The position numbers and the translations under genes were made by a program. 64,000 bases of DNA. It comes from Candidatus Zambryskiibacteriota bacterium. Lineage in GTDB: Bacteria; Patescibacteriota; Minisyncoccia; Phycocordibacterales; DATDWN01. The first letter of the stretch is position 1. Every line of letters starts with the position of its first letter. Under the pieces are notes generated by a model. It did no database searches and was not told the origin of the DNA. It saw only the letters and a program-made list of their open reading frames with translations. This document shows positions 5,598 to 38,627 of this stretch, one piece after another. The stretch lies in contig PPGI01000008.1 of NCBI GenBank assembly GCA_003173855.1, positions 10,119 through 74,118 on the forward strand. The letters are read 5' to 3'.

Positions 5598-6794
5598 ATG
5601 GCTGAGTTCGATCGTTCAAAGCCACATGTGAATGTGGGAACAATTGGTCACGTTGACCACGGTAAGACAACATTAACAGCAGCAATTTTGACTGTACTTG
5701 GACGCGCAGGCCAAGGCTTCGGCGCAAAAGTAAAAGGAGTTGATCAAATTGACTCTGCTCCTGAAGAAAAAGCACGAGGAATTACTATCGCGCTTTCTCA
5801 CAATGAGTACGAGACACCTACAAGACACTACGCTCACGTAGATGCTCCTGGACACGCTGACTATATTAAAAACATGATCACTGGTGCCGCTCAGATGGAC
5901 GGTGCAGTATTGGTAGTTGCCGCAACAGACGGTGTTATGCCTCAAACACGAGAGCACGTACTTTTGGCAAAACAAGTTGGTGTGCCAAAGATTATCGTTT
6001 TCCTAAACAAATGCGATATGGTGCCTGACAAAGAACTCATTGATTTGGTTGAGGAGGAAGTTCGAGAGCTCCTTACAAAACAAGGTTTCGATGGTGCAGG
6101 TGCTCCAGTTATTCGAGGTTCAGGTCTTAAAGCTCTTGAGTCAAAAGACAATAATGACGAATGGGCAGCAAAAATTCTAGAACTTGCAAACGCATTGGAT
6201 ACTTATTTCCCAATTCCAGAGAGAGATCTTGAAAAGCCATTCCTTATGCCAGTTGAAGACATTTTCTCAATCGAAGGACGAGGAACTGTGGTAACTGGAA
6301 GAATTGAACGAGGAATCGTAAAAGTTGGTGAAGAAGTAGAGTGTATTGGTTTGAAAGATACAGCAAAATACACTGTTACTGGTATTGAAATGTTCAACAA
6401 ATCACTTCAAGAAGGCCAGGCTGGAGACAACGCTGGAATTCTTCTTCGAGGTGCTAAAAAAGAAGACATTCATCGAGGACAAGTTTTGGCAAAGCCAAAG
6501 ACTGTAACTCCTCACACAGAATTTATGGCAGAAGTTTACATTCTAAAGAAAGAAGAAGGTGGACGACACACAGCATTCGTTACAGGTTACAAACCACAAT
6601 TCTACATTCGAACTACAGACGTAACAGGAGAAGTTTCTCTAAACGAAGGTGTTGAAATGGTTATGCCAGGAGACACAGTTACTTTCAAAGTTAAACTTGT
6701 TGCTCCAGTTGCTCTAGAAGAGAAGACTCGATTTGCGATCCGCGAGGGTGGTAAGACAGTCGGCGCAGGAGTTGTAACAAAAATCCTCGCTTAG
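5598..6794 (+). CDS. tuf: Elongation factor Tu
   Basis: 398 aa; [18 protein letters not shown] motifs. Confidence 0.98.
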
Positions 6795-6920
6795 TAAACT
6801 TCCAAATTTAGCGATCTCCTTGTTTCGAGTTTGAAAATGTTCGTCACTTTACTACTTGTAAAGCTTCTCACATTTTCAAACTCTCAACTTCGGATCTCAT
6901 CTAAATTCTGAAAGTTTAGA
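6795..6920 (+). repeat. Conserved ~125-nt structured 3'-UTR element, copy M1 (begins TAAACTTCCAAATTT at the tuf stop codon)
   Basis: Alignable to the element after rplB (11088..11210). Central hairpin ctttac-tactt-gtaaag (6847..6863) shows compensatory changes relative to ccttac/gtaagg in the other copies. Confidence 0.55.
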
Positions 6921-6922
6921 AA

Positions 6923-6947
6923 AATACCGCACTCGCGGTATTTTTTC
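6923..6947 (+). terminator. Rho-independent terminator after tuf (taccgcactcgcggta + T6)
   Basis: Perfect hairpin followed by TTTTTT. Confidence 0.7.
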
Positions 6948-7022
6948 CCTTACAGGGACTGTACACCTTTCGCACATAACAGTGCTCAAGGTCTTGCGAA
7001 GCTTCGCTTCTCACGCCTAACA

Positions 7023-7051
7023 TTGCATTCAAAATTGAAATTTTTTATAAT
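7023..7051 (+). promoter_or_regulatory. Promoter TTGCAT-N17-TATAAT driving a GC-rich non-coding unit
   Basis: Consensus -35 and -10 with a 17-nt spacer. No ORF >=60 aa in 6795..7378. Confidence 0.5.
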
Positions 7052-7057
7052 ACTAAA

Positions 7058-7338
7058 TGGAGCAGTCGACACACAACCACGCTGAAGTAAGCGAAACGGC
7101 ACTATGAAACGAGATCTCGGCCTCCGGAAGTTTCAAGCCAGCAAAGCGTGTGTGGGAGAGCAGCGAATCTGCTCGTTACATACCTCACAGTAGGCACGCA
7201 CCCCATGTGTCGGGGACTCGTTGAGAGCCGCAGTAGTGACTTCTCCATCGTCCGCATCGGTAGAAAACCAAATCGGTTTCTCCGAGGCGGTTTTCTTTTA
7301 TACTTTACCCCGTACTGAGCTTTGCTCTAGTACTGGGG
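7058..7338 (+). ncRNA. Candidate structured non-coding RNA (~280 nt, GC ~55%) between tuf and rpsJ
   Basis: GC-rich island in an AT-rich genome, with no ORF. It has its own consensus promoter and ends in a hairpin (ccccgtact...agtactgggg, 7308..7338). Identity unknown; it did not match my recall of RNase P, SRP or 6S RNAs. Confidence 0.3.
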
Positions 7339-7367
7339 TTGAACAAAATTTAAATCTCTGTTAGTAT
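7339..7367 (+). promoter_or_regulatory. Promoter TTGAAC-N17-TAGTAT for rpsJ
   Basis: TTGAAC (7339-7344), 17-nt spacer, TAGTAT (7362-7367), 11 nt before the ATG. Confidence 0.55.
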
Positions 7368-7378
7368 CGAGCTTACAA

Positions 7379-7807
7379 ATGCCAACAGCAAAAAAGGAAC
7401 CAAAAGCAAAAAAAGCAGCAGCTCCTAAAAAAACTGCAGCAAAAACTCCTGCAAAAGCTGCTGCTCCAAAGGTTACAAAAGCTAAAGCAGCTCAAGATGT
7501 TATTTCAAAGCTACGAATCCGAGTTCGAGCTTACGAATACAAAATCTTAGATCTTTCAGTAAAACAAATTATCGATACAGCACTTCGATATGATGCAAAA
7601 GTTGAAGGCCCTATTCCACTTCCAACAGAACACAAAAAATATACTGTAAACCGATCATCATTCGTTTACAAAAATGCTAGGGAACAATTTGAAATGAGAA
7701 TTCACAAGCGATTGATTGATATTTTAAATCCTACACCAAAAATCATGGAGGCTCTTACAAATATGTCTTTGCCTAGCGGAGTTAACATCGACGTAAAAAT
7801 AATTTAA
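7379..7807 (+). CDS. rpsJ: 30S ribosomal protein S10 with an ~45-aa Lys/Ala-rich N-terminal extension
   Basis: C-terminal ~100 aa match S10 (RIRVRAYEYKILD...HKRLIDIL). The N-terminus (AKKEPKAKKAAAPKKTAAKTPAKAAAPK) is histone-H1-like. Confidence 0.9.
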   Translation: MPTAKKEPKAKKAAAPKKTAAKTPAKAAAPKVTKAKAAQDVISKLRIRVRAYEYKILDLSVKQIIDTALRYDAKVEGPIPLPTEHKKYTVNRSSFVYKNAREQFEMRIHKRLIDILNPTPKIMEALTNMSLPSGVNIDVKII

Positions 7808-7810
7808 AGA

Positions 7811-7842
7811 CGAAACCACCTCACGATGAGGTGGTTTTGGTA
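7811..7842. terminator. Bidirectional terminator (accacctcacgatgaggtggt + TTTT)
   Basis: 8-bp perfect stem plus T-run, between rpsJ and a convergent membrane ORFan. Confidence 0.65.
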
Positions 7843-7843
7843 T

Positions 7844-8110
7844 TCATCGCCATGCAGACATGATGATTTTCTTTCTATGTCTGATAACGATATGGATGAG
7901 AATAAAACAGAGTGTGAGTAGTGACCAGATTGTTACACTAATGTAATCATTCAGATATACGCAAGCAGTTACTCCAGCTCCAACCATTGCTATGTAGGAC
8001 AAAAGAGTTCTTGTTGAATAATATGTACTTTTTTCCCTCCATATTCCGATAAGAGAGATGATGAAAACACAAAGCCAAAATATCCCAAAGGTTCGGAAAA
8101 GGAAAGTCAT
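7844..8110 (-). CDS. Hypothetical small membrane protein (2-3 transmembrane segments); the ORF track extends it to 8164 but the SD-supported start is at 8110
   Basis: Hydrophobic ORF. GGAGG SD 5 nt before the internal ATG (MTFLFRTF...). TTGACA-N17-TAATCT promoter upstream on the minus strand. Ends in TGA. Confidence 0.4.
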   Translation of the reverse strand: MTFLFRTFGIFWLCVFIISLIGIWREKSTYYSTRTLLSYIAMVGAGVTACVYLNDYISVTIWSLLTLCFILIHIVIRHRKKIIMSAWR

Positions 8111-8208
8111 TCTTGCCTCCGCACTTAGATTATTTCTGTTTATAATTAATGTCAATAAATACACTTGTTTTCGGTTTTTCTCTATGGTAGTTTCTTCTGG
8201 GAGGAAAA

Positions 8209-8421
8209 GTGTTTATTGCTTCAAAAAAACCTCATCGTATTGGAGACAAAGGACATGGTGCATATCCAACTTCTGATGGAAAGATTGGAAAAGCCCCATT
8301 TGTTGTTCTTCGAGAAGCTACATTTGAGGATTGGTTGAAACAAGGTCTTGAAGCGGGCTTCTCTGAACAAGAGATGATTTCTAAAAGGTTCACTTATTTT
8401 TATGAGGTAAGTGTGGACTGA
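8209..8421 (+). CDS. Hypothetical 70-aa protein (GTG start)
   Basis: GGGAGG SD 4 nt upstream; followed by a terminator hairpin at 8423..8447. No known family. Confidence 0.3.
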   Translation: MFIASKKPHRIGDKGHGAYPTSDGKIGKAPFVVLREATFEDWLKQGLEAGFSEQEMISKRFTYFYEVSVD

Positions 8422-8422
8422 G

Positions 8423-8447
8423 CCGAGCAGAAAACGCTCGGCTTTTC
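8423..8447 (+). terminator. Hairpin terminator (gccgagc-agaaaac-gctcggc + TTTTCT)
   Basis: 7-bp perfect stem plus T-rich tail. Forms the hairpin part of the hairpin-promoter module upstream of rplC. Confidence 0.55.
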
Positions 8448-8453
8448 TAAAAC

Positions 8454-8482
8454 TTGAACAAAAAATGGTTATCTGCTAGTAT
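8454..8482 (+). promoter_or_regulatory. Promoter TTGAAC-N17-TAGTAT for rplC
   Basis: TTGAAC (8454-8459), 17-nt spacer, TAGTAT (8477-8482). Confidence 0.55.
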
Positions 8483-8487
8483 GACCG

Positions 8488-8509
8488 AATCGCATTTGCG
8501 ATTTTTTTA
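8488..8509 (+). promoter_or_regulatory. Leader hairpin plus T7 (aatcgc-att-gcgatt-TTTTTTT) in the rplC 5' UTR; attenuator-like
   Basis: Intrinsic-terminator-like structure between the promoter and start codon. Shares GCGATTTTTTTAAT with the tuf leader. Confidence 0.4.
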
Positions 8510-8588
8510 ATGGTAGCTAGCGAAGGGCAATGTTGTGACGGATCTCGTCGCATTACTGTCCGCAAACCGCTACCGAGACAAAAATAAC

Positions 8589-10250: not shown

Positions 10251-11090
10251 ATGAAAAGATACCGACCAACATCAAAATCACGCCGACAGATGACAACCAT
10301 TTCATTTGGTGATTTCATTACCACAAATGACCCAGTCAAGTCATTGACTCATGGCTATAAACGACAAATGGGCCGAAGTCATGGTGAAATAACTACTCGA
10401 CACAAAGGAGGCGGTCACAAGAGACTTTTCCGCGAAGTTGATTTTCTATACGACAAAATAAATATTCCTTACACAATCAAAACTGTTGAATACGACCCAA
10501 ACCGATCAGGTTTTATCGGACTTGCTCAATATGCTGATGGTGAAAAAAGATATGTTCTTGTTCCTCGAGGAATTAAAGTAGGGGAAACATTTTTAACTAG
10601 TGAAACTGCTGAACCAAAAACTGGAAATCGATTGCCTCTAAAAAACATAAATATTGGTACTTTTGTTTACAACGTAGAAATAAAACCAAATGGCGGAGCT
10701 AAACTTGCTCGATCTGCCGGAAACTATATTGAAGTTATTGCTAAAGATGGAGGAATGATTGATCTAAAAATGCCTTCAACTGAAGTTCGCAAAGTTCCAG
10801 AAACAGCTTGGGCATCTATCGGTGATGTTTCAAACAACGAAAACAGATTGGTAAATCTTGGTAAAGCTGGACGTTCACGATGGCTTGGAATCAGGCCTAC
10901 AGTTCGCGGTACAGCAATGAACCCTGTTGATCACAAATACGGTGGAGGAGAAGGCCGTCAGGGAAGAGGAACAAGACGTGCGATTTCTATTTATGGTAAG
11001 CCAACAGGTAAGGGTCAGAAGTCTAGAACTCCTAAGAAGTATTCGAATAAGTTTATTGTTTCTCGCCGACGCGTTGGCAAGCAACGCTAA
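10251..11090 (+). CDS. rplB: 50S ribosomal protein L2
   Basis: 279 aa; conserved L2 C-terminal region (GGGEGRQGRG...). Confidence 0.96.
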   Translation: MKRYRPTSKSRRQMTTISFGDFITTNDPVKSLTHGYKRQMGRSHGEITTRHKGGGHKRLFREVDFLYDKINIPYTIKTVEYDPNRSGFIGLAQYADGEKRYVLVPRGIKVGETFLTSETAEPKTGNRLPLKNINIGTFVYNVEIKPNGGAKLARSAGNYIEVIAKDGGMIDLKMPSTEVRKVPETAWASIGDVSNNENRLVNLGKAGRSRWLGIRPTVRGTAMNPVDHKYGGGEGRQGRGTRRAISIYGKPTGKGQKSRTPKKYSNKFIVSRRRVGKQR

Positions 11091-11210
11091 ACTTCCAAAT
11101 TTGGCGAACTCCTCGTTACCAAATTAAAAATACTCGTCACCTTACATTTGTAAGGCTCCTCGCATTTTTATTTCTCACGTCGGATTTCATCCAAATCTGA
11201 TAATTTTAGG
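11088..11210 (+). repeat. Conserved structured 3'-UTR element, copy M2 (TAAACTTCCAAATTT overlaps the rplB stop)
   Basis: Alignable to 6795..6920; contains hairpin ccttac-attt-gtaagg at 11140..11155. Confidence 0.55.
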
Positions 11211-11258
11211 GCGACCAAATCGGTCGCCTTTGACATTTAAAATTTTTTGTGATTAAAT
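11209..11258 (+). promoter_or_regulatory. Terminator/promoter module: hairpin GGGCGACC..GGTCGCC, then TTGACA-N17-TTAAAT
   Basis: Hairpin 11209..11228; TTGACA 11230..11235; -10 at 11253..11258; GAGGAG SD before the ATG at 11278. Confidence 0.55.
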
Positions 11259-11277
11259 ATACGCAGAGGAGTGAGAA

Positions 11278-11568
11278 ATGAATTCAACTTGTTACTTTTG
11301 CAAAAAACCTGGTCAATTTCGGAAAATGACCCTTTCTTCTCAATTAGGGAGCTGGGCCCCTGAACTGGGTCCCATTGATCACGTAGATGTTCACTCTCAT
11401 TGTTATTTTTGGCGGGCTAAACTTCCTGAAATAGGAATGGTAGTACCTGGTCTTCTGGTTTATGTCGGATTTTTTTTGAAATCAGAAACCATGGTAATAT
11501 ATACCATGTCCTTGGCTTTGCTTTTTGCGGGATGGGGTCTATACAACAGATTTCGTTTCAATTTCTAG
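11278..11568 (+). CDS. Hypothetical 96-aa protein (C-terminal hydrophobic segment) inserted between rplB and rpsS
   Basis: ORF with strong SD, own promoter and downstream terminator. No family recognised. Confidence 0.35.
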   Translation: MNSTCYFCKKPGQFRKMTLSSQLGSWAPELGPIDHVDVHSHCYFWRAKLPEIGMVVPGLLVYVGFFLKSETMVIYTMSLALLFAGWGLYNRFRFNF

Positions 11569-11574
11569 TGTGTA

Positions 11575-11624
11575 GGGCGGCAAAGTAGCCGCCCTTTGAC
11601 ATTTAAAAAATGAAGAATAGAGTT
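11575..11624 (+). promoter_or_regulatory. Terminator/promoter module: hairpin GGGCGGC..GCCGCCC, then TTGACA-N16-TAGAGT
   Basis: Hairpin 11575..11594; TTGACA 11596..11601; AAAGGAG SD before the ATG at 11660. Confidence 0.5.
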
Positions 11625-11659
11625 AATAATAGAGCCATTTTGACAGAAAGGAGTTTCTT

Positions 11660-12004
11660 ATGTGGGAAAGGCAAGCGTTTTTGGAAAAATTACTCAAGGC
11701 CTCGGAACAAGTAATAAAAATATCATCGAGGAGAGAGAAATTCACTTGGGCCGATATTTCTGCTAAGGCTGAAAGGAGTGTTGGCCTGCCTGTAGTTTGT
11801 CCGAATTCTCCACAAAAGTATCATCCAGTGGAGGAAGCTATCGAAACTCTTGCTCGTCATGGTCGTATAAAGCAAAAAATCAAAAGAGATCTATTCTGGG
11901 GTCCACTTATGACTTTGGAGGATCTTCAAAAGATCGAAGAAGCATGGCAACATGTTACAAGACCTTCAAAGATTCTTGAGGTTAAACTTCAGATTGCGTC
12001 CTGA
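11660..12004 (+). CDS. Hypothetical 114-aa protein inserted between rplB and rpsS
   Basis: ORF with strong SD; ends with tandem stops TGA-TAA. No family recognised. Confidence 0.4.
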   Translation: MWERQAFLEKLLKASEQVIKISSRREKFTWADISAKAERSVGLPVVCPNSPQKYHPVEEAIETLARHGRIKQKIKRDLFWGPLMTLEDLQKIEEAWQHVTRPSKILEVKLQIAS

Positions 12005-12012
12005 TAACTAAG

Positions 12013-12062
12013 GGCGGCGAATTGCGCCGCCCTTTGACATTTATAGGCAATTTGTATAGTAT
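12013..12062 (+). promoter_or_regulatory. Terminator/promoter module: hairpin GGGCGGCG..CGCCGCCC, then TTGACA-N17-TAGTAT
   Basis: Hairpin 12013..12033; TTGACA 12034..12039; TAGTAT 12057..12062. Confidence 0.55.
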
Positions 12063-12127
12063 AGGCCCTAAGTTAAGAGCCATTACCTCTAACTTGGTTT
12101 TGTTCGCGGTATTCAGTCAAGTCAGAT

Positions 12128-12153
12128 ACCACAAACAATGTGGTTTTTGTTTT
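12128..12153 (+). promoter_or_regulatory. Terminator-like hairpin in the rpsS leader (accaca-aacaa-tgtggt + TTTTTGTTTT)
   Basis: Perfect 6-bp stem plus T-run, 15 nt before the rpsS ATG. Possible attenuator. Confidence 0.35.
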
Positions 12154-12167
12154 GAACAAATTAAAAT

Positions 12168-22382: not shown

Positions 22383-22410
22383 TTGTTAATTTTTTTAGCG
22401 GCAGTATAAT
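22383..22410 (+). promoter_or_regulatory. Promoter TTGTTA-N16-TATAAT
   Basis: Near-consensus sigma70 elements at 22383-22388 and 22405-22410. Confidence 0.5.
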
Positions 22411-22416
22411 CAAAAT

Positions 22417-22586
22417 TGGTTACGTTAGATATTTTCCGACTAAATATATTTCAGGGAGCCTCATATCTTTGCACCACGATGAGCGTTAATTCGTTCTGAC
22501 GAGTGCAATTGCGGGCACCCACCTAGTATTTAAACTAGGGAAATATCAGCGTAACCATTTAAAAATCCCACAAATGTGGGATTTTT
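22417..22586 (+). ncRNA. Candidate small RNA or structured 5' leader (~170 nt) ending in an intrinsic terminator
   Basis: Transcribed from the promoter above. Closing helix ggttacg...cgtaacc (22419-22425 with 22548-22554). Terminator aaatcccacaaatgtgggattttt at 22563..22586, which overlaps the annotated ATG at 22576. Confidence 0.3.
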
Positions 22587-22596
22587 AAATACTTTA

Positions 22597-28058: not shown

Positions 28059-28068
28059 TTTGTATTTG

Positions 28069-28451
28069 TGGAGATGGTGGTATCGAAACCACGTCCATAT
28101 ATAGAATTGAAACGAATCTACAGTGCTTAGGATATTTAATTGTTTAAAACACAAAGCTTAGAACAGCCAAAATACTTTGTATTCGAGTTCCTATTTTTCG
28201 GAAGTTTCCGGAACAAGGAACTTCTATAACCTCAATTTATATCAATCAACTTCTCGTATGAGATATGAGAGAAGCGACCGTCCCTTAGGCTAAAGCGTAA
28301 GAGAAAGTATAGGCTCCGTAAGGAGAAACTACACCCTTAGACAAGTTTTTTACACTTAATCTTTCCAAACCGTTTTAGGAGAATTTGGTGCTCCGCATTG
28401 CACGTATCAATGTCGAATATATGTCAAAACCTGTCATCCCCGCTCTTTGTA
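28069..28451 (-). ncRNA. ssrA: tmRNA (ssrA), ~383 nt
   Basis: 5' GGGGAUG pairs with 3' CAUCUCC, including the G3:U70 pair that marks alanine charging. tRNA-like T-arm (GUGG-UUUCGAUA-CCAC); discriminator A; CCA not encoded. Internal tag reading frame GCC UAU ACU UUC UCU UAC GCU UUA GCC UAA (AYTFSYALA*) at 28285..28314. Adjacent to smpB. Confidence 0.75.
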
Positions 28452-29132: not shown

Positions 29133-29220
29133 AAAAGAAATAGTAACATAGTTTAAATACTCTTTACTTATAAGTATAGTGGAGTATAGTTAATTTTGGA
29201 CAATCTCTCAGGGAGGTGGT

Positions 29221-29433
29221 ATGGACCGAAAGTCGATCTCGATCATGAAAGCGTGCGAGTTGGTGGGCGTTTCTCGGCGGACGATTTACAACTGGCTCTC
29301 GAGTGGCAAGATCGAGTACGTTCGGACTGCTGGGGGGTCGGTACGAATCTTCGTCGACTCGTTGTGGCGCGATCCGCATAAGGTCGATCGGCCAGCAGTT
29401 CAGACTGTCTTGCAGGCTGAAGGGCGGAGCTAG
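29221..29433 (+). CDS. Excisionase-family helix-turn-helix DNA-binding protein, GC-rich (~58% GC)
   Basis: ELVGVSRRTIYNWLSSGKIEY is an Xis/MerR-type HTH. GGGAGG SD. Local GC far above the genome background. Confidence 0.65.
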   Translation: MDRKSISIMKACELVGVSRRTIYNWLSSGKIEYVRTAGGSVRIFVDSLWRDPHKVDRPAVQTVLQAEGRS

Positions 29434-29467
29434 CCTTTCAGAACAGAACTACGATAGCACGAAAATC

Positions 29468-29491
29468 TAAGGGGCGGCTTAACCGCCCCTT
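29468..29491 (+). terminator. Terminator hairpin (ggggcggcttaaccgcccc + TTT)
   Basis: GC stem plus T tail after the xis-like gene. Confidence 0.55.
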
Positions 29492-29555
29492 TCTGTACAT
29501 CTAATTTTCACTTTTATTTTGATTAAATTCATGTATACTGTGCCTTATTAAATAT

Positions 29556-36756: not shown

Positions 36757-38143
36757 TTAATATTGAGAACTCCACTGTGCGGTTAGATTTCCAATACCAT
36801 TGTCGGCTACAACTTTAATTGAGATTATATCTCCTGCACTAAATGCAACATTGTGTGTTACATCTGAACAAGAACTTGCTCCGCTAGTGATTGTACACGT
36901 TACAGGCTGACTTACGCCATTTTTATCAACAGTGAACACGATATTTTTACCAGAGCCGCCGACATTAGAACTCAATCTCACAAAGAAGTTCTTTATTGTT
37001 CCTGCAACTGGCATTGCTACTTGCTCTGAGCTTTCAGTTGTTGAATTACTTCCAACAAATGTGCCCATGTATGTTGTAGCATTAGCTTGAACGCTTGCAC
37101 CACTGCCTCCACCTATAAATGAGATTCCGTTAGTTCCATTTATACCTGGGTTACCTTGTATTCCTTGGATACCCTGTATACCTTGAGAACCAGTGTCACC
37201 CTTATCTCCCTTTACACCCTGAATACCTTGGATGCCCTGTATTCCTTGATCTCCTTTATCACCCTTTGGACCAATAAGTGATGTTAACCATTGAGTTACA
37301 GTGCCACCAAAACTATTATCAACAGCAACTTGGTAAGCACTTTTTCCATCAACACCAGTGTCTCCTTTGTCTCCTTTATCACCCTTATCACCTTGAATTC
37401 CTTGTATTCCTTGATCTCCTTTGTCTCCTTTTAAGCCTTGTGGACCTTGAGAACCAGTATCACCTTTATCTCCCTTTGGACCTTGTGGACCAGTATCGCC
37501 GGTATCTCCCTTCAAACCTTGTGGGCCTGGTACACCTTGAATACCTTGTTCTCCTTTTTCACCTTGTTGACCAGTTTCTCCTTGGATTCCTTGCTCACCT
37601 TGAGCACCAGTCTCTCCTTTTTCACCCTGAACTCCTTGAATACCCTGATCTCCTTTGTCACCTTTATCTCCCTTTGGACCTTGGATTCCTTGTTGACCTT
37701 GTGGACCAGCAGGACCTATTGGACCTACATCACCTTGAGCACCTATAGGACCAGCAGCTCCCGTATCTCCTTTAGGACCTTGATCTCCGGTATCACCCTT
37801 GTCTCCTTTTTCTCCATTAGTTCCGTTTGTTCCAGGATCCCCCTTTGGACCTTGTGGACCAACTGAACCTTGTATACCTTGTGGACCTTGAGCACCAGTC
37901 TCTCCTTTAGGACCCGCAGGGCCTGTGTCACCAGTATCACCCTTTGGACCGGTTGCTCCATCAGCACCATTTTGACCAGCAGGACCGATTGGACCTTGGA
38001 TTCCTTGAATTCCTTGTGGGCCAGCAGGACCTTGAATATTTCCTACATCTTGGAAGTGAGTTAAATCAGTACATACATATAAATGTCCACCAATTAAATA
38101 TCCATCACCAATATTACATGATGAAGGTAGAAGGGAGTATCAT
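36757..38143 (-). pseudogene. Collagen-like (GxY)n protein, C-terminal segment: ~110 GxY triplets, a phage tail-fibre/BclA-like SAYQVAVDNSFGGTVTQWLTSL motif, and a C-terminal globular domain. The frame is open from 38143 with no ATG; it continues the 38094..38627 ORF after a frameshift
   Basis: In-frame GxY repeats traced by eye from 38041 to ~37100. The ORF-track entry 36757..37515 merely starts at an internal TTG. Confidence 0.6.
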
Positions 38144-38627
38144 CAAATGATCCGAGAATTTTTACACTTGTTCCAGCTTCTCCTTTTTCTCCTTGTGGAC
38201 CTTGTGGACCAGCAGGGCCTTGAGCACCTGTTGCACCAGGAGCACCATCAGCACCAGCCGGACCGGTTGAGCCTGTATCTCCTTTATCTCCTTTTGAACC
38301 TTGTATTCCTTGAGCACCTATTGAACCAGCAGGACCTGTGGCACCAGTATTACCAGTGTCACCCTTGTCTCCTTTTTCTCCTTGTGGACCGATAGGACCG
38401 ATTGGACCTTGTGGGCCGATAGGACCAGGAACTCCTTGAATTCCTTGTGGACCTTGTGGACCTGCAGGACCTTGTGGACCAACTGTTGAACCGACACTAA
38501 TAAAAGTATTTCCTGAACCAGTACACTGTGAGGCAGAACTTACAACCGTCACTTTTCCGTTCGGACTTGAAACACAAAGATTAATTGTTGTAGCAGATGC
38601 ATTTGCAAGTGGAATTAATGCAAACAA
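38094..38627 (-). CDS. Collagen-like protein, N-terminal segment (signal peptide + N-domain + ~40 GxY triplets), ending prematurely after a frame change
   Basis: [12 protein letters not shown] signal-like; [16 protein letters not shown]... repeats. The ORF ends in the non-collagen tail ...[24 protein letters not shown], while the GxY frame resumes downstream in another frame. Confidence 0.6.

What the first reader, a model, noticed from the sequence alone, without database searches (positions are those of the whole stretch)
7023..7338. Independent GC-rich ~280-nt non-coding transcription unit between tuf and rpsJ
Between the tuf terminator (6923-6947) and the rpsJ promoter (7339-7367) there is no ORF. 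There is a consensus promoter (TTGCAT-N17-TATAAT, 7023-7051). It drives a ~280-nt stretch of ~55% GC, about 20 points above the genome average, that ends in a 9-bp hairpin (7308-7338). High GC in an AT-rich genome is typical of structured RNAs. I could not match it to tmRNA (found elsewhere), RNase P, SRP or 6S RNA from memory. It contains short motifs shared with the MITE-like repeat, so it may be a domesticated derivative of that element.
Basis: partly seen in the sequence, partly recalled or inferred. Interest (0 to 1): 0.55.

Follow-up and report, generated by a model that had tools for sequence, protein, structure and literature searches.

The report
Orphan GC-rich non-coding cassette, tuf–rpsJ
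Between the tuf and rpsJ genes of this Parcubacteria genome lies a roughly 240-base, GC-rich stretch with its own promoter and terminator and no gene; it is found in no other genome and folds no better than random sequence, so it looks like one more piece of variable, imported DNA in an insertion-prone slot, not a new structured RNA.

Summary
The observation largely holds. There is no credible ORF. TTGCAT-N17-TATAAT sits at 7023-7051. The 7057-7251 core is 54.9% GC against 38.1% for the window. The hairpin at 7308-7338 exists.

The anatomy needs correcting. The unit ends at a canonical intrinsic terminator (stem 7252-7290, U-run 7291-7299), which gives an RNA of about 243 nt. The 7308-7338 hairpin is not the unit's end. 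It is one copy of a dispersed hairpin found at 120 or more places in metagenomes.

- **Structure:** the core alone folds no better than shuffles (z -0.8; tmRNA -3.7; probable 6S RNA -8.3; a GC-rich coding island -0.5).
- **Known families:** there is no Rfam match.
- **Homologues:** none were found, protein or DNA, in 211 related loci, 5.8 billion proteins, phages, plasmids, viral contigs or JGI metagenomes.
- **MITE origin:** similarity to the neighbouring palindromic repeat is at chance level.

Relatives with 89-91% identical EF-Tu have an empty site. Zambryskibacteria-like relatives carry unrelated small protein genes in the same promoter-to-terminator slot.

Best reading: an orphan, probably transcribed, non-coding cargo cassette of foreign origin. 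It is either a young sRNA or a decayed small-gene cassette. Interest is low.

The parts
6795..6925 (+). Context, not part of the unit. A conserved palindromic element of about 125 nt (a long hairpin) directly after the tuf stop codon. A second copy follows rplB at 11088.
   Evidence: The copy at 11088-11145 is 81% identical. Copies occur in L001, L002, L006, L009, L010, L011 and L087/88. In a 9-sequence alignment, 90% of cells are paired, 16 of 37 pairs show compensatory changes, and 0 of 500 shuffles reach the observed values.
6923..6947 (+). tuf intrinsic terminator, with an A-run before it and a T-run after it. It forms the left border of the variable slot.
   Evidence: Folds at -14.7 kcal/mol, z -6.45. 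Analogous terminators stand at the same place in L001, L005, L010 and L210.
6996..7007 (.). Perfect 12-nt palindrome GCGAAGCTTCGC, 16 nt upstream of the -35 hexamer. A possible operator; untested.
   Evidence: Self reverse-complement match; sequence read.
7023..7051 (+). Sigma-70-type promoter-like site: TTGCAT, 17-nt spacer, TATAAT.
   Evidence: Read. It is one of only two TTGNNN-N16-18-TATAAT sites in 64 kb, against 6.1 expected, and both are intergenic. The other one precedes a probable 6S RNA. The -35 hexamer matches TTGACA at only 3 of 6 positions, so the tool scan misses it.
7057..7251 (+). GC-rich core (54.9% GC). It is non-coding and an orphan, and it folds no better than shuffled sequence. 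The predicted 5' end of the RNA is at about 7057-7058.
   Evidence: GC content. Fold z -0.81 on + and -1.32 on -. No Rfam match, no tRNA, no Pfam or PHROGs match. No protein hit at E <= 10 among 5.8 billion clusters, in any of six frames. No DNA homologue.
7252..7299 (+). Intrinsic terminator of the unit: stem 7252-7290 followed by UUUUCUUUU at 7291-7299.
   Evidence: Folds at -19.1 kcal/mol, z -4.44. The U-run is on the + strand only; the - strand has the stem but no U-run.
7308..7338 (+). One copy of a dispersed, highly conserved 31-nt hairpin (13-15 bp with two bulged U). It abuts the -35 hexamer of the rpsJ promoter and is not specific to this unit.
   Evidence: Single copy in the window. 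All contexts differ. Pair 8/23 is G-C in 114 instances, C-G in 11 and mismatched in none; the flanking pair is C-G in 82 and T-A in 31.
7339..7367 (+). rpsJ promoter-like site: TTGAAC, 17-nt spacer, TAGTAT. It forms the right border of the slot. The rpsJ ATG lies 12 nt after the -10 hexamer, with no Shine-Dalgarno sequence.
   Evidence: Conserved in L001, L003, L005 and L010, whatever lies upstream of it.

Best explanation
The region is the occupant of a hypervariable 'cargo slot'. The slot lies between the tuf terminator and rpsJ's own promoter in a Zambryskibacteria-like (Parcubacteria) genome. In relatives, this slot is either empty or holds an unrelated small protein gene with its own promoter and terminator.

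Here the slot holds a promoter-to-terminator cassette with no ORF. TTGCAT-N17-TATAAT (7023-7051) most likely starts transcription at about 7057. The transcript runs through a 195-nt core of 55% GC and ends at the intrinsic terminator 7252-7299, giving a free-standing RNA of about 243 nt. Terminators on both sides insulate it from tuf and from the S10 operon.

The GC excess marks the core as imported DNA, like the excisionase-like island at 29.2 kb. It is not the signature of an unusually stable fold. The cassette is lineage-specific. It is either a young orphan sRNA that acts, if at all, through its sequence and not through a conserved fold, or the transcribed relic of a small-gene cassette that has lost its ORF.

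Shown: the anatomy, the absence of coding capacity, the absence of homologues, the absence of excess structure, and the variability of the slot.
Inferred: that the promoter fires, that the terminator works, and that the core is of foreign origin.
For: Promoter:
- The motif is rare. There are 2 in the window against 6.1 expected, both intergenic, and the other one drives a probable 6S RNA.

Terminator:
- A canonical terminator with a U-run on the + strand only.

Non-coding and orphan:
- No ORF longer than 56 aa.
- No family or protein match in any of six frames.
- The ORFs are absent from the 15-billion-protein collection.

Slot variability:
- The site is empty in L086-L089 and L211, with a gap of about 60-150 nt.
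- Relatives carry different small genes in the same architecture: L001 (69 aa), L003 (91 aa), L005 (83 aa), L010 (134 aa) and L210 (about 121 aa). L081 carries DUF5678 plus an Asp-protease-like gene, L007 a 311-aa ORF that looks like a transposase by eye (no family search was run), and L011 ORFs that look HicAB-like by eye.
- A second slot after rplB begins with the same palindromic element and carries two small ORFs.

Foreign origin instead of structure:
- Core z is -0.81, against -0.48 for the GC-rich excisionase-like gene, -3.67 for tmRNA and -8.29 for the 6S-like RNA.
- The core's GC content is at the 99.5th percentile, exceeded only by the excisionase-like island.
Against: - No transcript data exist, so transcription is inferred from motifs only.
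- The -35 hexamer is only 3 of 6 to the consensus, and the tool's consensus scan finds no promoter there.
- Real structured RNAs can have modest z-scores, so z -0.8 does not exclude a functional fold.
- The core's GC excess (+17 points) is well above that of the protein cargo in relatives (-4 to +9 points), so it is not simply typical cargo.
- Seed-based DNA scans find only near-identical sequences. A diverged family could have been missed.
Confidence: 0.55

Rival explanations
1. A functional, structured non-coding RNA gene of a new class. On this view the high GC content stabilises a fold needed for function.
For: A promoter and terminator frame a non-coding, GC-rich stretch. The MFE model closes the 5' and 3' ends into a rod with a three-way junction. 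No known family matches, so it would be new.
Against: The core folds no better than its shuffles: z -0.81, with 40 of 200 shuffles at least as stable, and the MFE structure has a frequency of 0.002 in the ensemble. There are no homologues anywhere, so no covariation can be shown. It is absent from the closest relatives, which a housekeeping RNA would not be.
Confidence: 0.15
2. A tiny-protein cassette. The transcript would encode a very short peptide: a leaderless 16-aa ORF that starts at the predicted 5' end (ATG 7057, MEQSTHNHAEVSETAL), or the 29-aa ORF at 7104-7193. This would match the small-gene cargo seen in relatives.
For: The ATG lies 5 nt after the -10 hexamer. rpsJ in this clade also lacks a Shine-Dalgarno sequence and starts close to its -10 hexamer. 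L011 has a 30-aa hydrophobic ORF upstream of the shared ACTCGTTGAGAG motif, a terminator and the same hairpin. The slot normally holds small genes.
Against: There is no Shine-Dalgarno sequence and no homologue. The number of stop codons in the core is about what random 55%-GC sequence would give (my own count from the translation). The peptides look like random hydrophilic sequence. About 150 nt of GC-rich 3' sequence would be left unexplained.
Confidence: 0.1
3. A cis-acting leader or attenuator of the S10 operon. The promoter at 7023 would drive a leader whose terminator (7252-7299) is read through under some condition to express rpsJ, as in L4-mediated attenuation in E. coli.
For: The layout promoter, roughly 200-nt leader, terminator, then rpsJ 80 nt further on resembles an attenuator.
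Against: rpsJ has its own promoter-like site, conserved across relatives, downstream of the terminator. The 'leader' is absent or replaced by protein genes in every relative. No ribosomal-leader family matches in Rfam. I saw no obvious antiterminator pairing by eye.
Confidence: 0.07
4. The RNA, if there is one, is made from the minus strand.
For: The minus strand folds slightly better: -108.2 against -100.3 kcal/mol for the whole region, with core z -1.32 against -0.81. The tuf terminator is bidirectional, with A- and T-runs.
Against: I found no promoter-like site on the minus strand (and by eye). The terminator U-run is on the + strand only. The strong promoter motif is on the + strand.
Confidence: 0.05
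5. An assembly chimera: a GC-rich fragment from another organism joined into this metagenome-assembled contig.
For: The GC content jumps sharply and the sequence is found nowhere else.
Against: The GC-rich stretch is framed precisely by host-like, AT-rich promoter and terminator signals. It sits inside a slot whose borders are conserved in relatives. A chimeric join would not fall so neatly into place.
Confidence: 0.03

Closest known systems
Stand-alone bacterial sRNA genes (sigma-70 promoter plus Rho-independent terminator, 50-300 nt), many of them lineage-specific
   Same: The unit is intergenic, has its own promoter-like site and a canonical intrinsic terminator, has no ORF, is about 243 nt long and is restricted to one lineage.
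   Different: There is no expression evidence, no conservation even in close relatives, no identified target and no chaperone context. The GC excess of +17 points is unusual for this kind of gene.
Genomic islets and hypervariable inter-gene slots filled with horizontally acquired cargo
   Same: The same flanks (tuf terminator and rpsJ promoter) enclose unrelated content in each relative, or an empty site. The composition is atypical. A second slot lies after rplB.
   Different: The cargo here is non-coding. I found no integrase, direct repeats or target-site duplication at the borders.
6S RNA (Rfam RF00013)
   Same: A rod-like MFE model with the 5' and 3' ends paired, a length of about 200 nt and a strong promoter.
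   Different: There is no 6S hit even at E <= 10. The genome's likely 6S RNA is elsewhere, at 22412-22562: full-length but sub-threshold RF00013 match of 18.4 bits (gathering score 46.4), E 0.085, fold z -8.3.
E. coli S10 operon leader (L4-mediated transcription attenuation)
   Same: A position immediately upstream of rpsJ, with a terminator hairpin before the gene.
   Different: A separate conserved rpsJ promoter lies downstream of the terminator. The leader is not conserved in any relative and there is no sequence or structure match.
REP-like dispersed intergenic hairpins (applies to 7308-7338 only)
   Same: A short imperfect palindrome in many copies, intergenic, in both orientations, often between co-directional genes.
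   Different: Sequence conservation across many different metagenomic genomes is unusually high. Compensatory changes keep the stem intact. It is not in Rfam, and no paper in the searched library prints the sequence.

Membership tests
RNase P RNA (Rfam RNaseP_bact_a/b) | Match to the covariance model, including the conserved P4 strands (GGAAAGUCC ... ACAGAA..GGCUUA) | tested here: not met
   No hit at the gathering score or at E <= 10 on 6780-7400. The P4 motifs are absent on reading the sequence.
SRP RNA (Bacteria_small_SRP / Bacteria_large_SRP) | Domain IV helix 8, with a GNRA tetraloop and the conserved symmetric and asymmetric loops | tested here: not met
   No hit at E <= 10. CCGGAAG at 7125-7131 lacks a closing stem.
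6S RNA (RF00013) | Full-length match to the rod-with-central-bubble model | tested here: not met
   No hit at E <= 10. A different locus, 22412-22562, gives a full-length but sub-threshold 6S match (18.4 bits against a gathering score of 46.4).
tmRNA / tRNA (including tRNA genes interrupted by a group I intron, as reported for Patescibacteria in PMC13011429) | tRNA-like acceptor and T arms, or a group I intron core | tested here: not met
   ARAGORN finds nothing in 6800-7400. There is no tRNA or Intron_gpI hit at E <= 10. The tmRNA is at 28066-28441.
Structured non-coding RNA (generic) | Folding energy clearly below that of dinucleotide shuffles | tested here: not met
   Core z is -0.81 on + and -1.32 on -. 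Controls: tmRNA -3.67, 6S-like RNA -8.29, GC-rich coding island -0.48.
Structured non-coding RNA (generic) | Conservation with compensatory base changes in homologues | not testable with these tools
   No homologue was found in 211 loci, 5.8 billion proteins (six-frame search), phages, plasmids, viral contigs or JGI metagenomes.
Independent transcription unit (sRNA-type gene) | Promoter upstream | tested here: inconclusive
   The -10 hexamer is perfect, the spacer is 17 nt and the -35 hexamer begins TTG. The motif is rare and only intergenic in this window. However, the -35 hexamer is 3 of 6 to the consensus, the consensus scan reports nothing, and there are no transcript data.
Independent transcription unit (sRNA-type gene) | Intrinsic terminator downstream on the same strand | tested here: met
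   Stem 7252-7290 at -19.1 kcal/mol, z -4.4, followed by UUUUCUUUU on the + strand only.
Derivative of the neighbouring MITE-like / palindromic repeat | Sequence similarity to the repeat above chance | tested here: not met
   The longest shared words are 7-8 nt. Smith-Waterman scores fall within the shuffle range in 3 of 4 comparisons and reach 1 of 200 in one. No window-wide match exceeds 13 nt.
Pseudogene or protein-coding remnant | Detectable protein similarity in some reading frame | tested here: not met
   No Pfam or PHROGs match. No hit at E <= 10 among 5.8 billion protein clusters. tblastn against all loci hits only the dispersed hairpin. A remnant decayed beyond recognition cannot be excluded.
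Ribosomal-protein operon leader (S10 / L4 type) | Conserved upstream of rpsJ in related genomes, with no intervening promoter | tested here: not met
   The sequence is absent or replaced in all relatives. A conserved promoter-like site lies between it and rpsJ.

The most novel reading that the evidence does not exclude
The cassette is a functional, lineage-specific regulatory RNA delivered as mobile cargo. The conserved elements that border such slots would then form a cassette-exchange system that shuffles small genes and RNAs into the ribosomal-protein super-operon of Parcubacteria. Those elements are the 125-nt palindromic element after tuf and rplB, and the dispersed 31-nt hairpin before the rpsJ promoter.
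Probability: 0.07. Interest if true: 0.6.

Novelty: new member of a known kind. Interest (0 to 1): 0.22.

Why it matters
As an RNA gene it matters little. It is a single-genome orphan with no sign of a selected fold, so it opens no long-standing question.

Its practical value is as a caution. In AT-rich CPR genomes, a GC-rich intergenic island is not enough to call a structured RNA. Here the only two such islands in 64 kb behave like imported DNA.

The context is more interesting than the finding. The tuf-rpsJ and rplB-rpsS junctions of this clade are insertion-prone slots bordered by conserved structured elements. Two of those elements are not in Rfam and show clear compensatory changes: the 125-nt palindromic hairpin and the dispersed 31-nt hairpin.

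Tried and rejected
- **Rfam.** The search at gathering score on the whole window found only the tmRNA and two tRNAs. The search at E <= 10 on 6780-7400 gave four noise hits.
- **tRNA.** ARAGORN found nothing. I rejected a tRNA gene split by a group I intron (an idea from PMC13011429): there are no tRNA halves and no intron-core hit.
- **Pseudogene test.**
  - Six-frame segments against Pfam and PHROGs gave nothing.
  - A concatenated six-frame query against 5.8 billion proteins gave nothing at E <= 10.
  - An exact look-up of the three longest ORFs found none in the collection.
  - tblastn against all loci hit only the hairpin. The apparent extended hits in L092 and L140 dissolved on alignment.
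- **DNA homologues.**
  - nhmmer and blastn against 85, then 209, loci found nothing for the core.
  - In L011 only ACTCGTTGAGAG plus the hairpin are shared.
  - blastn against phages and plasmids gave no match.
  - Four core seeds against viral contigs, plus two scans there for the dispersed hairpin motif, found nothing (core seeds).
  - One core seed against JGI metagenomes found nothing.
- **Closest relatives.** Relatives identified by EF-Tu identity (L210, L081, L086-L089, L211) have an empty site or different cargo.
- **Target search.** RNAduplex against 70-nt start regions of the window's genes gave a best energy equal to the shuffle mean, which is uninformative.
- **Other ideas rejected.** A DGR template repeat, a retron RNA or a TnpB-type guide RNA would need a neighbouring reverse transcriptase or TnpB gene, or a second copy in the window. 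None is present.
- **Not run.** I did not run the profile search of 1.84 billion representatives or the structure predictions, because a 50-75-aa stop-free frame with no word-level hit had little chance of a significant result.

Full report
**Source and layout**

S10 homologues name the source as Parcubacteria/Paceibacteria, closest to Zambryskibacteria. The window is 38.1% GC. tuf is 5598-6794 and rpsJ is 7379-7807, both on the + strand. The 584-nt gap between them contains, in order:
- a palindromic element of about 125 nt directly after the tuf stop codon (6795-6925);
- the tuf terminator (6923-6947; -14.7 kcal/mol, z -6.5);
- 75 nt that include a perfect 12-nt palindrome (6996-7007);
- TTGCAT-N17-TATAAT (7023-7051);
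- a GC-rich core (7057-7251);
- an intrinsic terminator, with stem 7252-7290 and UUUUCUUUU at 7291-7299 (-19.1 kcal/mol, z -4.4, U-run on the + strand only);
- a 31-nt hairpin (7308-7338);
- TTGAAC-N17-TAGTAT (7339-7367);
- the rpsJ ATG, 12 nt further on.

**Checking the observation**

The largest ORFs in the region are 56 aa (+), 51 aa (-) and 47 aa (+).

The core is 54.9% GC. That is the 99.5th percentile of 195-nt windows in the window and 16.8 points above the mean. Local peaks reach 56-57%.

The tool's consensus scan does not report the promoter, because TTGCAT matches TTGACA at only 3 of 6 positions. Even so, the looser motif TTGNNN-N16-18-TATAAT occurs only twice on both strands of the whole window, against 6.1 +/- 2.7 in shuffles. 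Both copies lie in the 16% of the window that is intergenic. The other copy (22383-22410) is followed by a 150-nt rod-like RNA and a terminator. That RNA has fold z -8.3 and gives a full-length but sub-threshold match to the 6S model (18.4 bits against a gathering score of 46.4; E 0.085). I take this as reasonable indirect support that the 7023 motif is a working promoter.

With it, the predicted RNA is about 243 nt (7057-7299), and the hairpin at 7308-7338 lies outside the unit.

**Is it a structured RNA?**

The whole region 7055-7340 folds with z -2.9 on the + strand and -4.0 on the - strand. That signal comes from the two 3' hairpins.

The core alone (7057-7251) has z -0.81 on + and -1.32 on -. 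On the + strand, 40 of 200 shuffles fold at least as well; on the - strand, 21 of 200 do. The MFE structure has a frequency of only 0.002-0.004 in the ensemble.

Controls from the same window:

| Sequence | Fold z |
|---|---|
| tmRNA | -3.67 |
| probable 6S RNA | -8.29 |
| GC-rich coding island 29221-29433 | -0.48 |
| core 7057-7251 (+) | -0.81 |

The core therefore behaves like GC-rich imported DNA, not like this genome's real structured RNAs.

Rfam gives nothing at the gathering score. At E <= 10 on 621 nt it gives only four noise hits. ARAGORN finds no tRNA.

**Is it coding, or a pseudogene?**

Every frame has stop codons, at about the density I would expect for random 55%-GC sequence (my count).
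- Stop-free segments of all six frames hit no Pfam or PHROGs family.
- A concatenated six-frame query found nothing at E <= 10 among 5.8 billion protein clusters. That search would also have picked up spurious ORFs called on homologous elements in other assemblies.
- The three longest ORFs are not in the 15-billion-protein collection.

**Is it conserved?**

It is not.
- Of 80 syntenic loci from related species, most have a tuf-rpsJ gap under 200 nt.
- nhmmer and blastn with 6795-7378 find the palindromic element, the 31-nt hairpin and the rpsJ promoter in some relatives, but nothing for the core.
- The only partial echo is in L011. It shares ACTCGTTGAGAG, a terminator and the hairpin, but the sequence upstream there is a 30-aa hydrophobic ORF with no similarity to the core.
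- Relatives with 89-91% identical EF-Tu (L086-L089, L211) have rpsJ about 60-150 nt after tuf. In L086-L088 the gap contains the palindromic element or a short version of it; L089 lacks it. This is the empty site.
- The two closest relatives by EF-Tu (94%) carry different cargo. L210 has an ORF of about 121 aa. L081 has DUF5678 plus an Asp-protease-like gene.
- Searches of phages, plasmids, viral contigs (four core seeds) and JGI metagenomes (one core seed), and of 1.39 Mb of fetched loci, were all negative.

**The slot**

L001, L003, L005, L010 and L210 share one architecture: tuf, then (in some) the palindromic element, a terminator, a promoter-like site, a small ORF, a terminator, TTGAAC-like-N17-TAGTAT, and rpsJ. 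The small ORFs are unrelated to one another: 69, 91, 83, 134 and about 121 aa. L007 has a 311-aa ORF that looks like a transposase by eye (no family search was run), and L011 has ORFs that look HicAB-like by eye.

The window has the same frame, but its cassette has no ORF.

A second copy of the palindromic element follows rplB at 11088. It too is followed by about 1 kb of extra DNA with two small ORFs before rpsS. The ribosomal-protein super-operon of this clade therefore has recurrent insertion-prone slots, and the finding is the occupant of one of them.

Protein cargo in relatives is -4 to +9 GC points from its host. The window's core is +17 points. Only the excisionase-like island beside smpB/tmRNA is comparable, at +19 points.

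**The hairpin at 7308-7338**

It is single-copy in the window.

The contexts are unrelated to one another. Examples include just upstream of a 16S gene (L144), next to tRNAs (L120, L172, L201), and often 13-35 nt from a start codon.

Among 125 distinct instances:
- the two S positions are G/C in 114 and C/G in 11, and are never mismatched;
- the pair flanking the pattern is C-G in 82 and T-A in 31.

L001 appears, by eye, to retain a shortened remnant of the hairpin at the same place. The hairpin is therefore an ancestral, dispersed, structure-constrained element that abuts the rpsJ promoter. It is not the 3' end of the GC-rich unit.

**The 'MITE-like' link**

The palindromic element at 6795-6925 is a well-supported conserved hairpin. 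Across 9 copies, 90% of cells are paired, 16 of 37 pairs show compensatory changes, and 0 of 500 shuffles reach the observed values.

The core shares only 7-8-nt words with it. Local alignment scores are within the shuffle range, with one of four comparisons at 1 of 200. Derivation of the core from this element is not supported.

**Mechanism and verdict**

The most likely reading (confidence 0.55) is a lineage-specific, imported, non-coding cassette. It would be transcribed from the 7023 promoter into an RNA of about 243 nt that stops at 7299, and it is insulated on both sides by terminators. It is either a young orphan sRNA or the transcribed relic of a small-gene cassette.

Rivals, with my confidence in each:
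- a new structured RNA (0.15);
- a tiny-peptide gene (0.10);
- an S10 attenuator (0.07);
- a minus-strand RNA (0.05);
- an assembly chimera (0.03).

No data set available here can show transcription. That remains the decisive missing experiment.

Interest is low for the finding itself. The bordering conserved elements and the probable divergent 6S RNA are better leads.

Noticed in passing
window 22383-22592: The only other TTGNNN-N16-TATAAT site in the window (22383-22410) precedes a rod-like RNA of about 150 nt (22412-22562, fold z -8.3) and a strong terminator (22556-22592). It gives a full-length but sub-threshold match to the Rfam 6S model (18.4 bits against a gathering score of 46.4; E 0.085). 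This is probably the genome's divergent 6S RNA.
   Followed up: partly
window 7308-7338; L003 3862-3886 and 7775-7799; L011 2932-2956; L090-L209: A dispersed, highly conserved 31-nt hairpin (gcCCCGUAGUGAGCUUUGCUCUACUACUGGGGu, with two bulged U) occurs at 120 or more places in metagenomes. It is always intergenic, occurs in both orientations at about 2:1, and lies next to rRNA, tRNA and protein genes. Compensatory changes are strict (G-C 114, C-G 11, mismatched 0). It is not in Rfam, and no paper in the searched library prints the sequence.
   Followed up: partly
window 6795-6925 and 11088-11215; L087 4697-4825; L009, L006, L010, L011, L001, L002: A palindromic element of about 125 nt starts right at the stop codons of tuf and rplB. 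It is conserved across Paceibacteria genomes and supported as a long hairpin by compensatory changes (16 of 37 pairs; 0 of 500 shuffles reach the observed values). In this genome both copies are followed by inserted cargo. It has no Rfam match.
   Followed up: partly
window 29164-29500: This is the most GC-rich island in the window (57-58%). It encodes a 70-aa helix-turn-helix protein that matches excisionase PHROG families (phrog_66, E 2.5e-6). It lies between smpB/tmRNA and ftsH and has its own terminator. It looks like a remnant of an element integrated next to the tmRNA gene.
   Followed up: partly
window 7808-8534 and 11091-12167: The S10 operon is interrupted in two places. About 730 nt lie between rpsJ and rplC, with a 106-aa ORF on the opposite strand that looks membrane-like by eye. 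About 1.08 kb lies between rplB and rpsS, with ORFs of 96 and 114 aa. These appear to be more cargo slots inside the ribosomal-protein operon.
   Followed up: no
window 7362-7381; L001 652-675; L003 3915-3975; L005, L010: rpsJ in this clade has no Shine-Dalgarno sequence. Its ATG lies 12-25 nt after a conserved TAGTAT -10 hexamer. In L003, a TATAAT lies 4 nt before the ATG. This suggests leaderless or nearly leaderless translation of the first gene of the S10 operon. The S10 protein also carries a Lys/Ala-rich N-terminal extension of variable length.
   Followed up: no
window 37100-38500: A long array with 9-nt periodicity (families D1-D4) looks, by eye, like collagen-type Gly-X-Y repeats encoded on the minus strand. 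It is not a MITE. It accounts for several short chance matches to 6982-6993.
   Followed up: no
L011 2745-2837: A 30-aa hydrophobic ORF (MGKVLIPLLILIVVAGRVLIRWHMGWKEPK) with a GGAG ribosome-binding site. It is followed by ACTCGTTGAGAG, a terminator and the dispersed hairpin. It resembles a small membrane or toxin-like peptide cassette in the tuf-rpsJ slot of a relative.
   Followed up: no
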